Below are positions 36,001 through 39,000 of a DNA stretch of 64,000 nt, one piece after another. This stretch comes from Methanobacteriota archaeon (GTDB lineage Bacteria > Myxococcota > UBA727 > JABDBI01). Location: NCBI GenBank assembly GCA_013288705.1, contig JABDBI010000003.1, positions 36,288 through 100,287 of the forward strand, written 5' to 3'. Position numbers: made by a program. How positions within the stretch are numbered: the first letter of the stretch is position 1; each line of letters starts with the position of its first letter.

Positions 36001-39000
36001 CATAGTCGCATTTCAACTTAGCCGTGGCTTTACGGGCTGACATTTTTGACGCTTAATGTTTCGGTGCTGTGAGCGTCGGTCTGGCGCCCCTACCAGTAAC
36101 TTGTTTTTCTTTTAGATTTAGAGCAAATAAATGAAGCAATTTGGGATCTATATCGATCCCCACAGACGTGGGTTCTATGGACTCGAAGCGCTTTTTCATT
36201 CGTGGCTACTCGCAGGGTTCGTCGCTTCTAAGTTCTGAGCGTCCAGCTAAAAATCCCTATCCATAACCGTTTTCCGCCCATCCCGCTCTGCGTTCTCGAT
36301 TGCTTTGTGACAATGCAAACGCACAATTTCCGACAAACGCCCCATCACATCAGCCGATGTGTTCATGCCTGACTTTGCGCGAATATAGTCTTTGAGCTTA
36401 GACGCTACGATCAAAATGTCTTTAGGTAAATCATCGCGACCACTTTGCACCGGTGCAACGATTCGTCTTCCTTCGGCGGCATCGGCAACCTTAGGTGCCA
36501 TTCGTTCTTCCGCCCAAGCGTCTTTGTGGCGAAAAATCGGCACGTGCATGCTGAAGCAATCCATCGAGCAATAGGCCGTTTTGCGACAGGTAGAAACTTC
36601 GCAGGCGAAGTACTTTGTGGAGAGCCCGATGGGGTTTTTGCAGCTGCCGCAATGGCGCCAGATTTGTGCTTCGTTCATGAAGGCGTGCTCTGTCATGAAT
36701 CTTGGCAATGCACAATCGGCTCGCTGATATCGACTTATGACTATAAATGTGACCATAATTAAGCCATGGTCACATTGCGTCGGCGCGAGTTGGAACAGAG
36801 AATCCGTCGAAGGTTCAATTTTTGTGCTTGGATGAAAAATTGAATGATGCTGCGCTGCGAGAAGGATTTTCCGTTCCGCTACAGAAAGGTCTGTAAATAT
36901 GCATCGCTAGCAAGACCTGCTCCCTCGACATAAGACTGCAGCTCCTGCCTCGCTCGCGCCGGATTTCGGTCGGTCAATCTCACGCGACCACGTGCTCCAA
37001 TTTCGACGCTGACCTCAAGCTCCTGCTCCGACTTCAATGCAATCGGAGCCCGAAGTCGCTGCAGCGATTTTATCTTGGCATCGTAGAGCGTTACCAGCAA
37101 AAGCCACTCGTTTGCGCTTCGCTGGGGCCTATGTCCGCGGATTTCAATTCGGCACGATTGCTCCGGGATTGCAGGCGAGATCGTCGTCATGTTGACAGCT
37201 TGAAATTTCCTTCTCCAATTACCTGGAACCGATTCATGGGGTTGCCACGCCTCGGTGTAAACCTGTTCCTGGATGTTTGTCACAAGCCACAAACTTAGAT
37301 CGAAATTACTTCTTGCCCCGAACCCATCAAACTGTCTGATGACAGATGCAAAAGTACGTCTAGCTAGAGCCGATAGCAAACCGATTGGCGGCGCATTATA
37401 AGGATCGTTACCCAGCGACGCGATGGCGAGCGTCGGATGATTCTGGTAATCAACGATGAAGTTTCGGAGCAACAATGGGTTTTGCCGAAACGCCGTAAAG
37501 CTAATGTTCACGTGGCCGTTGCCAAGATATTGATGGGGCATAAGGCTAATAGAGCGCGCTAGATCAAAAATGTCGCGCTGCATTCTGGAGGCCAGACTCG
37601 CGGTTTGTTGAGACGTCGCGGGTTTTGCTTTGACTTCGACGGCTGCGGGATCAGTGGTCACTTCATACCACCAGCCATCGGGATAAAGCACGCGAAACTC
37701 AATGTTTCTTGCTGCACCGCCATACTCAGCTTCACCGACAATTCTGCACGCCGGGCAATTTGTGCGCAGCTGCTCCGCAATCGCTCTTTTCCATTGCGTC
37801 ACGTAGCCATCGCTGACGGGGGAATTCATCCATTCTGCGCCATCCGATGCAACCGGATTGCGGCGTTGTGCCTTGACGACAGCATCGTTGGTAAAGGTGA
37901 ACTCGGGGCCAAAATAGACTTCGTTGCCTGCATGCAAAATCTGTGCGGCAAGGAGCACGGTGAAAAGCATCTTCATGCTACGTCATATGACCGATGGCGG
38001 GTTTTTGGATGATCTCAGCAGGGAGTTGCAGACTAAAATCTAAACTGGCAATAAATAGACAATGAATAAAGGCATCTTATATACAGCCCTCTCTGGCACC
38101 CTATACGGCTCCATCGGATATTTCGGCAGCCAGCTCATGGCCCAAGGTTTGTCTGTCCGCGATTTGCTCTTGTGGCGTTTTCTTTTCTCCACCGCTTTGC
38201 TGCTGCCATTTCTACCCAGCTTTTGGAAGCATCGCGCGACGTCACCCGTCAACGTAAAGGCTCTCTTGATCCTTCTATTTTTGGGCGGTGCAGTTTATGG
38301 GTCGGGCACAGCTTTGTATTTCGAATCAAGTAAGTTGATCGGGACTGGCCTCGCGATGGTGATTTTTTTCACCTACCCGATCTTTGTGGTTGGGATGTCT
38401 GCATGCATTAACAAAACACCGCTGAATCGCGTGACTTTGATTTCCGTGGCGCTTATCGTCGTGGGCTGTTCCATGATTGCATTTGAACAGAACATGAAGC
38501 TTGACTTAACTGGCATTCTTTTGGCTATTCTTTCAGCGGTCGCCTACGCGATTTATGTGTTTTGGAGTAAGAAAACGACAAGTGTTCTGCCGCCGGTGTT
38601 GGCAACATTGACCGTGTGTATGGGTGGAACGCTCGCGTTTATTGCTTACATTGTTGCTGTGCGGGGGGCGTTCTTTGTACCGTCGACGTCGCAGATGTGG
38701 GTGCATATCAGCTTGTTTAGCTTAATAGGCACGGTATTGCCTGTTTTGCTTTTGCTGGCGGGTCTGAAGTACATTTCGGCCAACAAAGCTTCGATCATTT
38801 CTGTGCTGGAGCCGGTCACGACGCTCGGAGTCGGAGCGATCGTCCTTGAAGAAGCGGTGTCACCATTGCAGCTGCTTGGCTCTGCGATTATTTTGAGCAG
38901 CGCCATGATTATCCAGCTGGATAAAGAAAAGGCCGCTTAGGAAGTCTCGAGGAAGTTAAGATCTTTGTGGTAGGTTTCTTCGAGGAAATACAGCGCTGTG

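What the first reader, a model, noticed from the sequence alone, without database searches (positions are those of the whole stretch)
36247..36696. Cross-brace zinc finger fused to a truncated histone fold
The N-terminal half reads C-x2-C-x9-YFAC-x4-C-x5-C-x3-C-x3-H-x5-H (CGSCKNPIGLSTKYFACEVSTCRKTAYCSMDCFSMHVPIFRH). That gives 6 Cys and 2 His with the YCS..C...H signature seen in eukaryote-type ZZ/HIT/MYND fingers. The C-terminal 60 residues (VASKLKDYIRAKSG-MNTSAD-VMGRLSEIVRLHCHKAIENAERDG-RKTVMDRDF) read as histone-fold alpha1-L1-alpha2-L2. They end at the GRKTV..D motif that closes loop L2 in archaeal HMf-type histones, with alpha3 essentially missing. I recall that structure-prediction surveys of prokaryotic histones proposed a 'ZZ-histone' class with this layout; this needs verification. 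As far as I know no member has been characterised experimentally.
Basis: partly seen in the sequence, partly recalled or inferred. Interest (0 to 1): 0.6.

Follow-up and report, generated by a model that had tools for sequence, protein, structure and literature searches.

The report
Bacterial zinc-finger ("ZZ") histone gene
This is a real gene for a bacterial "ZZ histone", a two-zinc finger tethered to a Bdellovibrio-type mini-histone; the family was catalogued in 2024 but has not been studied at the bench, so this is a clean new member and not a new kind of protein.

Summary
The minus-strand ORF 36247-36696 encodes 149 aa (143 aa if it starts at Met7). It has the stated C-x2-C…C-x4-C…C-x3-C…H-x5-H pattern and a C-terminal alpha1-L1-alpha2-L2 histone fold that ends in GRKTVMDRDF.

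All eight metal ligands and the RxTxxxxD histone motif are invariant in 89 aligned homologues. The word-indexed search found 868 relatives.

The C-terminal 57 residues are 47% identical to the crystallised B. bacteriovorus histone HBb. The profile E-value is 1e-16, and the AF2 model superposes on HBb at 0.6-0.8 Å. Nine of HBb's ten DNA-contact residues are kept.

The finger models confidently. It resembles ZZ and MYND domains only weakly: Foldseek E is at least 0.13 and no sequence hit is significant.

Schwab et al. 2024 defined "ZZ histones" with exactly this layout. I found only expression and proteomic data for the Bdellovibrio member Bd3044, and no biochemistry.

The gene is a solo unit, with no conserved neighbour in 80 related loci. 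The public gene call (100 aa, from Met50) cuts off the finger.

Verdict: new member of a known, uncharacterised family. Interest is modest.

The parts
36247..36696 (-). ZZ-histone gene. It encodes 149 aa from ATG 36696. The start best supported by homologues is ATG 36678 (Met7, 143 aa). The stop codon is at 36247-36249.
   Evidence: ORF list and translation; 868 homologues of about 150 aa; N-termini of homologues align about 6 residues before W13.
36493..36660 (-). Cross-brace two-zinc finger domain, residues about 13-68. The ligands are C16, C19, C32, C37, C43, C47, H51 and H57. The conserved RHKDAWAEE..AP strand follows.
   Evidence: All 8 ligands are invariant in 89 sequences. AF2 pLDDT is about 85-95 with strands 12-16, 22-24, 28-32 and 62-66 and helix 45-55. 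Best fold matches are ZZ and MYND domains at E 0.13-1. Pfam zf-MYND scores E=0.011, below its cut-off.
36421..36492 (-). Flexible linker, residues about 69-92, containing the conserved short motif R77-R78-I79-V80.
   Evidence: pLDDT is below 50 for residues 75-88. R78 is present in 75/89 sequences and positions 79 and 80 are hydrophobic in 79/89 and 83/89. The motif occurs in 26/59 distant full-length representatives against 1.2 expected from shuffled linkers.
36250..36420 (-). HBb-like alpha3-truncated histone fold, residues 93-149: alpha1 98-109, L1, alpha2 115-138, L2 with G140-R-K-T143, RD clamp R141/D148, and a one-turn alpha3.
   Evidence: BLASTP to HBb gives 47% identity and E 2e-17. 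The profile against PDB gives 1e-16. Foldseek gives TM 0.85-0.90 and rmsd 0.6-0.8 Å. tblastn of HBb hits only this place in the window.
36746..36776 (.). Inverted repeat AATGTGACCAT-N9-ATGGTCACATT in the 183-nt spacer upstream of the gene. It may be an operator or the end of the upstream transcript. That it belongs to the gene is not established.
   Evidence: It is unique in the window, with 0 matches in 100 shuffles. Its 11-bp arms compare with a shuffled mean of about 5.4. It is not conserved upstream of relatives, and no terminator or strong promoter consensus was found.

Best explanation
The gene encodes a member of the bacterial 'ZZ histone' family. SHOWN: it has an N-terminal domain of about 55 residues with eight invariant Cys/His ligands. 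A disordered linker of about 25 residues follows, carrying a conserved R-R-[ILV]-[VAI] motif. The C-terminus is a 57-residue histone fold that is 47% identical to the crystallised Bdellovibrio histone HBb and superposes on it. INFERRED: the ligand spacing matches cross-brace fingers, and Schwab et al. assign a C4 and a C2H2 site, so pairs 1+3 (C16, C19, C43, C47) and pairs 2+4 (C32, C37, H51, H57) should each hold one Zn2+. INFERRED from HBb: two histone folds pair in the usual handshake to form a homodimer. The dimer binds DNA without sequence preference, through backbone and minor-groove contacts of the alpha1/L1/L2 residues (S99, K100, K102, R106, N112, S114, K142, T143, R147), and bends it. 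It does not wrap DNA into nucleosome-like particles, because alpha3 and the tetramerisation surface are missing. INFERRED, weaker: each dimer carries two zinc fingers on flexible tethers. These act as interaction modules for a peptide or protein partner, or as a second nucleic-acid contact. On this reading the protein is a low-copy, specialised nucleoid protein or adaptor and not the bulk chromatin protein. This fits the low abundance of the Bdellovibrio member Bd3044. The gene is transcribed on its own and is not part of an operon.
For: Ligands and histone motif are invariant in 26 and 89 homologues. HBb homology is shown by the profile E-value of 1e-16, BLASTP at 47% identity and E 2e-17, and Foldseek TM 0.85-0.90 with rmsd 0.6-0.8 Å. 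HBb's DNA-contact residues are N22, R57, S9, T53, T8, S24, K10, K12, K52 and K16, and its RD clamp is R51-D58 with D49 (PMC11317129). With an offset of +90 these map to N112, R147, S99, T143, A98, S114, K100, K102, K142, R106, R141, D148 and D139. That is 9 of 10 contacts kept, plus the whole clamp. The histone domain has a net charge of +3; HBb is also +3 by my own count of its sequence as printed. The two domains model confidently and the linker does not: pLDDT is below 50 for residues 75-88 and pTM is 0.44. The finger's best fold matches are peptide-binding ZZ domains (p62, BIG, p300) and MYND domains. The family definition and the low expression of the B. bacteriovorus member come from PMC11390915, PMC10627809 and the 2025 preprint. 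No neighbour is shared with or among 80 related loci. Spacers of 183 and 243 nt separate the gene from the flanking genes.
Against: No tool here could model a dimer or a DNA complex, so dimerisation and DNA binding rest on homology to HBb. HBb contact T8 is Ala here, and nearly invariantly so in the family. The finger has no significant sequence match to any curated ZZ, MYND or HIT model or to any PDB chain, and its fold matches are weak (E>=0.13, TM 0.44-0.63). Schwab et al. report that the peptide-binding pocket of eukaryotic ZZ domains is not conserved, so a partner-binding role for the finger is a guess. Expression of this gene could not be checked: only one DNA run of a soil metagenome holds it.
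Confidence: 0.82

Rival explanations
1. It is a sequence-specific regulator and not an architectural protein. The zinc finger, or the finger plus the basic linker motif, reads DNA or RNA itself, and the histone fold serves mainly as a dimerisation and DNA-clamping module. The protein would then act as a transcription factor, possibly autoregulating through the 11-bp-arm palindrome upstream of its gene.
For: The Bdellovibrio member is of low abundance and its expression is timed, peaking late in growth, which suits a regulator. A unique inverted repeat sits 50-70 nt upstream of the start. The fingers carry a net positive charge across the family (median +3). The solo-gene context is typical of autoregulated regulators.
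Against: Palindromes are not enriched upstream of 53 relatives: the mean best arm is 5.9 against 5.4 in shuffles. This protein's own finger has a net charge of only +1. The nearest folds (ZZ, MYND) are protein- or peptide-binding domains, not DNA-binding ones. The HBb-type contacts that are conserved are backbone and minor-groove contacts, which are non-specific.
Confidence: 0.1
2. The histone fold is used only as a protein-protein dimerisation scaffold, as in TAFs or DUF1931 pseudodimers, and the protein does not act on DNA at all.
For: Schwab et al. caution that not all prokaryotic histone-fold proteins need be genome organisers. One HBb contact (T8) is replaced by Ala.
Against: Nine of ten HBb DNA-contact residues, the KT motif and the RD clamp are conserved, most of them invariantly. 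DUF1931-type proteins lack these residues (PMC12701072). The domain's net charge of +3 equals that of HBb by my own count of its sequence.
Confidence: 0.05
3. It is an exported effector aimed at the chromatin of a eukaryotic host or at prey. It would form a module with the two flanking minus-strand genes: a 365-aa secreted ligase-like protein and a 712-aa YopT-like peptidase candidate. This was suggested by an earlier first-stage note on the same region.
For: The finger is of a eukaryote-style kind. The downstream 712-aa protein has a weak Peptidase_C58 hit (E 0.0026, below the cut-off). Other notes on this genome mention type III secretion and effector-like proteins.
Against: Neither flanking gene recurs next to the histone gene in any of 80 related loci, not even in the relatives at 60-66% identity. 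Spacers of 183 and 243 nt separate the three genes. The N-terminus shows no signal peptide (sequence). The family is spread over the many Myxococcota and Bdellovibrionota MAGs in which it was found. B. bacteriovorus carries a member although its prey are bacteria, which I take to lack histones.
Confidence: 0.03

Closest known systems
ZZ histones (Schwab et al. 2024, Nat Commun 15:7950; example D0LYE7 of Haliangium ochraceum; Bd3044 of B. bacteriovorus HD100)
   Same: The architecture is identical: an N-terminal finger with C4 and C2H2 sites, a linker, and a C-terminal bacterial-dimer-like alpha3-truncated histone fold with RxTxxxxD. The protein is 51% identical (E 4e-42) to the B. bacteriovorus strain Bd5 homologue. 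It occurs in the same phyla, Myxococcota and Bdellovibrionota.
   Different: It belongs to a minority subtype with a 5-residue loop between Cys4 and Cys5, not the 9-residue loop. That subtype makes up 16 of 78 loci, mostly Bacteriovoracaceae, Oligoflexales and some Myxococcota MAGs. It has 'DAWAEE' where the Bdellovibrio protein has 'DAGAIE' after the last His. Its linker is short, about 25 aa, against a median of about 52 in distant representatives.
HBb / Bd0055, the 'bacterial dimer' histone of Bdellovibrio bacteriovorus (PDB 8FVX, 8CMP, 9EZZ, 9F0E)
   Same: 47-48% identity over the whole 57-residue fold with no gaps. Alpha2 is shortened and alpha3 is a single turn in both. The RD clamp, the KT motif and 9 of 10 DNA contacts are the same.
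   Different: HBb is the fold alone (about 60 aa), is very abundant and is probably essential. This protein carries a 90-residue N-terminal finger plus linker, and its Bdellovibrio counterpart is of low abundance. Contact T8 is Ala here.
Eukaryotic ZZ domains (p62/SQSTM1, BIG, PRT1, p300, HERC2, ZZZ3) and MYND domains (SMYD2, ZMYND8/11)
   Same: Eight ligands in four pairs with cross-brace spacing, a small beta-sheet plus one helix. These domains are the top Foldseek matches of the finger model.
   Different: The matches are weak: E 0.13-1, TM 0.44-0.63, 15-24% identity. There is no Pfam ZZ hit, and zf-MYND stays below its cut-off (16.2 against 22.7 bits). The last ligand pair is H-x5-H, whereas MYND ends H-x3-C. 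The peptide-binding pocket of eukaryotic ZZ domains is reported as not conserved. The finger profile finds essentially only this bacterial fusion family among the best 149 of its 291 hits in 1.84 billion representatives.
Archaeal nucleosomal histones (HMfB type) and face-to-face histones (HTkC, HLp)
   Same: They share the histone fold with the RxTxxxxD motif. HLp scores E 3.5e-9 and HTkC 3.7e-6 in the profile search.
   Different: HMfB scores only E 0.75. Alpha3 is truncated. This protein is nearest to the bacterial-dimer class, which is described as lacking the FtF dimer-dimer residues; I did not check those residues in this protein.

Membership tests
ZZ histones (Schwab et al. 2024) | N-terminal zinc finger with two sites, one C4 and one C2H2 (8 conserved ligands) | tested here: met
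   C16, C19, C32, C37, C43, C47, H51 and H57 are present and invariant in 26 and 89 homologues. Which ligands share a metal is inferred from the spacing and from the paper, not measured.
ZZ histones (Schwab et al. 2024) | C-terminal 'bacterial-dimer-like' alpha3-truncated histone fold | tested here: met
   HBb profile E 1e-16; 47% identity; Foldseek TM 0.85-0.90 and rmsd 0.6-0.8 Å; alpha3 is one turn in the model.
ZZ histones (Schwab et al. 2024) | Finger structurally similar to eukaryotic ZZ domains (HERC2, p300, ZZZ3) | tested here: inconclusive
   The top Foldseek hits of the finger model are the p62 ZZ, BIG ZZ and p300 ZZ domains, but at E 0.13-2 and TM 0.44-0.63, with MYND domains interleaved. 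There is no Pfam ZZ hit and no significant PDB sequence hit.
ZZ histones (Schwab et al. 2024) | Sequence homology over full length to recognised members | tested here: met
   51% identity and E 4e-42 to the full-length homologue in B. bacteriovorus strain Bd5 (L019). B. bacteriovorus is the species in which the papers name a ZZ histone, Bd3044. That L019 is the Bd3044 orthologue is inferred.
ZZ histones (Schwab et al. 2024) | Zinc actually bound; homodimer formed | not testable with these tools
alpha3 histones (RxTxxxxD motif, truncated alpha3) | RxTxxxxD motif / RD clamp | tested here: met
   R141-K-T143-V-M-D-R-D148. R141, T143 and D148 are invariant in 89 sequences.
Bacterial dimer histones (HBb type) | Stand-alone histone fold of about 60 aa without extra domains | tested here: not met
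   The protein has a 90-residue N-terminal finger plus linker. It works like HBb in its C-terminal domain but belongs to the sister class.
Bacterial dimer histones (HBb type) | HBb DNA-contact residues (N22, R57, S9, T53, T8, S24, K10, K12, K52, K16) | tested here: met
   9 of 10 are conserved at offset +90. T8 becomes A98 and K16 becomes R106.
MYND finger (Pfam PF01753) | Score above the Pfam gathering threshold; C4 + C2HC ligand set | tested here: not met
   16.2 bits against a cut-off of 22.7, E 0.011. 57 of 89 members give only weak hits, the best at E 0.0055. The last ligand is His, not Cys (sequence).
ZZ finger (Pfam PF00569) | Match to the Pfam ZZ profile | tested here: not met
   ZZ is not among this protein's hits at E<=10, nor among the 25 families shown of 33 matched by members at E<=1.
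Nucleosomal archaeal histones (HMfB type; NCBIfam archaea_histone, Pfam CBFD_NFYB_HMF) | Full three-helix fold reaching the curated cut-offs | tested here: not met
   NF043032 scores 15.8 bits against a cut-off of 50, on residues 129-148 only. PF00808 gives weak hits in 45 of 89 members, the best at 0.0014. HMfB scores E 0.75. Alpha3 is truncated.

The most novel reading that the evidence does not exclude
The finger and the conserved linker motif R-R-[ILV]-[VAI] together form a built-in 'reader plus tail' device. As eukaryotic ZZ domains clamp short basic peptides as an added beta-strand, the finger of one dimer would bind the linker motif of its own or a neighbouring dimer, or a basic tail of another nucleoid protein. 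This would give zinc- or redox-switchable bridging or oligomerisation of a DNA-bending histone. It would be a bacterial analogue of histone-tail reading that arose within one polypeptide.
Probability: 0.12. Interest if true: 0.65.

Novelty: new member of a known kind. Interest (0 to 1): 0.3.

Why it matters
Bacterial histones have been studied experimentally only since 2023 (HBb, HLp). ZZ histones are one of the five alpha3-histone subfamilies, and in the library searched I found no published biochemistry, structure or knock-out for them. This locus adds a clean member of the minority short-loop subtype from a soil bacterium. It also shows that automatic gene calling can hide the finger (100-aa call), that the gene travels alone, and that the linker carries a conserved short motif worth mutating. 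It does not change the picture of the family. The value lies in annotation and in sharpening which experiments to do on culturable members such as B. bacteriovorus Bd3044 and Haliangium D0LYE7.

Tried and rejected
(1) Conserved gene neighbourhood or operon. I compared ORFs of at least 80 aa from window 26-47 kb with those of 80 related genome loci (±6 kb). Only the histone gene itself is shared. All-against-all clustering of the loci found no recurrent neighbour, only antisense shadow ORFs of the gene. The 'ligase + peptidase + histone module' idea is therefore rejected.

(2) A second, HBb-type histone. tblastn of HBb against the window hits only this gene. The whole-genome search was shut, so the rest of the genome is untested.

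(3) Expression. Only one DNA run (soil metagenome) holds the stretch and no RNA run does.

(4) Upstream palindrome as a family-wide operator. Palindromes are not enriched upstream of 53 relatives, and no sigma-70 or terminator consensus beyond chance was found.

(5) The finger in other domain architectures. The finger-only profile found 291 representatives in 1.84 billion proteins. Of the best 149, 70 carry the histone domain. The others are short fragments or have tails that look frameshifted or chimeric; several break off inside '..DILVVxSK'. This gives no convincing alternative architecture.

(6) Sequence link of the finger to solved structures. Only chance Cys-rich matches appeared, to cytochrome c3 at E about 0.07.

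(7) Measuring Cys-Cys distances in the AF2 model was not possible, because model coordinates are not exposed.
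Full report
**Observation**

The stretch 36247-36696 is the minus-strand part of an ORF whose longest form runs to 36756. Translated from ATG 36696 it gives 149 residues:

MTEHAFMNEAQIWRHCGSCKNPIGLSTKYFACEVSTCRKTAYCSMDCFSMHVPIFRHKDAWAEERMAPKVADAAEGRRIVAPVQSGRDDLPKDILIVASKLKDYIRAKSGMNTSADVMGRLSEIVRLHCHKAIENAERDGRKTVMDRDF

The C-terminal 57 residues end in GRKTVMDRDF.

**It is a real, conserved gene**

- The word-indexed search found 868 proteins at E<=1e-3. 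Nearly all are about 150 aa, the best is 70% identical, and one carries the JGI name 'histone H3/H4'.
- In alignments of 26 and 89 homologues all eight putative metal ligands are invariant. So are S99, K102, S122, R126, A132, A136, R141, T143 and D148.
- Homologues start about six residues before W13. Met7 (ATG 36678) is therefore the best-supported start, and Met1 remains possible.
- The collection's own gene call for this contig is only 100 aa, from Met50. That start lies between ligands C47 and H51, so the call deletes the finger.

**The histone half**

- Curated libraries give only sub-threshold hints: NCBIfam archaea_histone at E 0.014, and Pfam CBFD_NFYB_HMF weakly in 45 of 89 members.
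- A family profile searched against PDB sequences is decisive. HBb (Bd0055) of Bdellovibrio bacteriovorus scores E about 1e-16 over residues 92-149. Leptospira HLp scores 3.5e-9, Thermococcus HTkC 3.7e-6 and HMfB only 0.75.
- Pairwise, the domain is 47% identical to HBb without gaps.
- The AF2 model (mean pLDDT 82.5) has helices 98-109 and 115-138 and a single turn at 146-148. It superposes on HBb crystal structures with TM 0.85-0.90 and rmsd 0.6-0.8 Å.
- The HBb paper lists the residues with most DNA contacts as N22, R57, S9, T53, T8, S24, K10, K12, K52 and K16. It describes the RD clamp as R51-D58 reinforced by D49 (PMC11317129). With the ungapped offset of +90, nine of the ten contacts are retained here (T8 becomes A98, K16 becomes R106). 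The whole clamp is also retained (D139, R141, D148).
- This domain is +3 in net charge, and HBb is also +3 by my own count of its sequence as printed.
- The histone domain is therefore an HBb-type, alpha3-truncated fold with its DNA-binding face intact. Dimerisation and DNA bending are inferred from this homology. No multimer tool was available.

**The finger half**

- Pfam gives only zf-MYND below its threshold (16.2 against 22.7 bits). Family-wide, 57 of 89 members give weak MYND hits and none hits the ZZ model among the families shown.
- A finger-only profile finds no significant PDB sequence.
- Modelled alone with 31 aligned sequences, the domain is confident: pLDDT 82.8, strands 12-16, 22-24, 28-32 and 62-66, and helix 45-55.
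- Its best Foldseek matches are ZZ domains (p62/SQSTM1, BIG, p300), interleaved with MYND domains (SMYD2, ZMYND8/11). All are weak, with E at least 0.13 and TM 0.44-0.63.
- The domain is thus a cross-brace two-zinc finger of the ZZ/MYND kind. The label 'ZZ' is plausible and is the published one, but I could not confirm it beyond weak fold similarity.
- The finger profile run against 1.84 billion representatives found 291 proteins. Of the best 149, 70 carry the histone domain. The rest are fragments or have tails that look frameshifted or chimeric. The finger therefore seems confined to this fusion.

**Linker**

- Residues 75-88 have pLDDT below 50 and the pTM is 0.44, so the two domains are independently tethered.
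- Within the otherwise variable linker, R77-R78-I79-V80 is conserved. R78 occurs in 75 of 89 sequences, and the two following positions are hydrophobic in 79 and 83 of 89.
- Among full-length representatives at 50% identity or less, 26 of 59 linkers carry [RK]R/R[RK]-[ILVM]-[ILVA]. Shuffled linkers give 1.2 on average, with a maximum of 6 in 500 shuffles.
- An earlier agent noted the same motif in another genome. I re-derived it here independently of that note's data.

**Context**

- The gene lies between a 365-aa gene and a 712-aa gene on the same strand, with spacers of 183 and 243 nt. The 365-aa product has no Pfam hit. The 712-aa product has a weak Peptidase_C58 hit at E 0.0026.
- Neither neighbour, nor any other gene of the 26-47 kb region, recurs in 80 related genome loci. 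The loci share no neighbour with each other either. The gene is a solo unit, and the three-gene 'module' suggested in an earlier first-stage note is not supported.
- An inverted repeat with 11-bp arms (36746-36776) sits upstream and is unique in the window. Palindromes are not a family-wide feature.
- The window comes from a soil metagenome, and no RNA data were found.
- The relatives are in Myxococcota, Bdellovibrionota (Bdellovibrio, Bacteriovoracaceae, Oligoflexales), Binatia and a few other MAG lineages.
- This protein has the minority 5-residue loop between Cys4 and Cys5, found in 16 of 78 loci. The remaining loci, including B. bacteriovorus, have 9 residues.

**Comparison with the literature**

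- Schwab et al. [quoted passage not shown] They describe the family as closely related to HBb and mainly proteobacterial in the older taxonomy.
- They report low transcript and protein levels for the member in B. bacteriovorus HD100, and that the eukaryotic ZZ peptide pocket is not conserved.
- Hocher et al. 2023 mention Bd3044 as a longer, less conserved and less abundant second histone-fold protein.
- A 2025 preprint reports that bd3044 peaks late in the growth phase.
- Later papers only list the class.
- Searches for ZZ-histone terms found no biochemical or genetic study. The library lacks many subscription-journal papers, so this is absence in that library only.

**Verdict**

The protein is a new member, of a minority loop subtype, of a known but experimentally untouched family. 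The most likely mechanism is an HBb-like homodimer that binds and bends DNA non-specifically, carrying two tethered zinc fingers that add a partner-binding or second nucleic-acid contact. That the protein belongs to the family is near certain, DNA binding is probable, and the finger's role is open.

Noticed in passing
window 36746-36776: Inverted repeat AATGTGACCAT-N9-ATGGTCACATT (11-bp arms) in the spacer upstream of the ZZ-histone gene. It is unique in the window. One relative (L010) has a similar core, AAGGACCATgATGGTCCTT, upstream of its gene, but there is no family-wide pattern.
   Followed up: partly
window 36397-36696 (public gene call, 100 aa from Met50, starts at ATG 36549): The gene call in the public protein collection starts at Met50, between zinc ligands C47 and H51. 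The deposited protein therefore lacks most of the finger and looks like a plain small histone-fold protein.
   Followed up: yes
window 33865-36003 (-): The 712-aa protein directly downstream has a long Ala/Gln/Glu-rich N-terminal half. Residues 371-485 give a weak, sub-threshold match to Peptidase_C58 (YopT-like cysteine peptidase; E 0.0026, 17.9 against 23 bits). It is not linked to ZZ histones in other genomes.
   Followed up: partly
window 36879-37976 (-): The 365-aa protein directly upstream has a signal-peptide-like N-terminus (MKMLFTVLLAAQILHAG) and no Pfam family at E<=0.001.
   Followed up: no
window 40191-40561 (-): tmRNA gene with tag peptide ANSNTESVAVYA, an unusual ...VYA ending (ARAGORN).
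   Followed up: no
family alignment A2; loci L001-L080: There are two loop subtypes of the finger between Cys4 and Cys5. The 5-residue loop (16/78 loci; Bacteriovoracaceae, Oligoflexales, some Myxococcota MAGs, and this window) is followed here and in the aligned short-loop members by 'DAWAEE'. The 9-residue loop (61/78; B. bacteriovorus, Polyangiaceae) is often followed by 'DAGAIE'.
   Followed up: partly
representative proteins P0122-P0270: About half of the finger-bearing representatives in the 50%-identity library lack the histone domain. Many are short fragments. Several others have tails that break off inside the conserved '..DILVVxSK' start of the histone fold, which suggests frameshifts or chimeric contigs and not new architectures.
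   Followed up: partly
window 32496-33800 (+): AAA_14/DUF4143 ATPase gene. An earlier first-stage note suggests a frameshift at its 5' end; I did not examine this.
   Followed up: no
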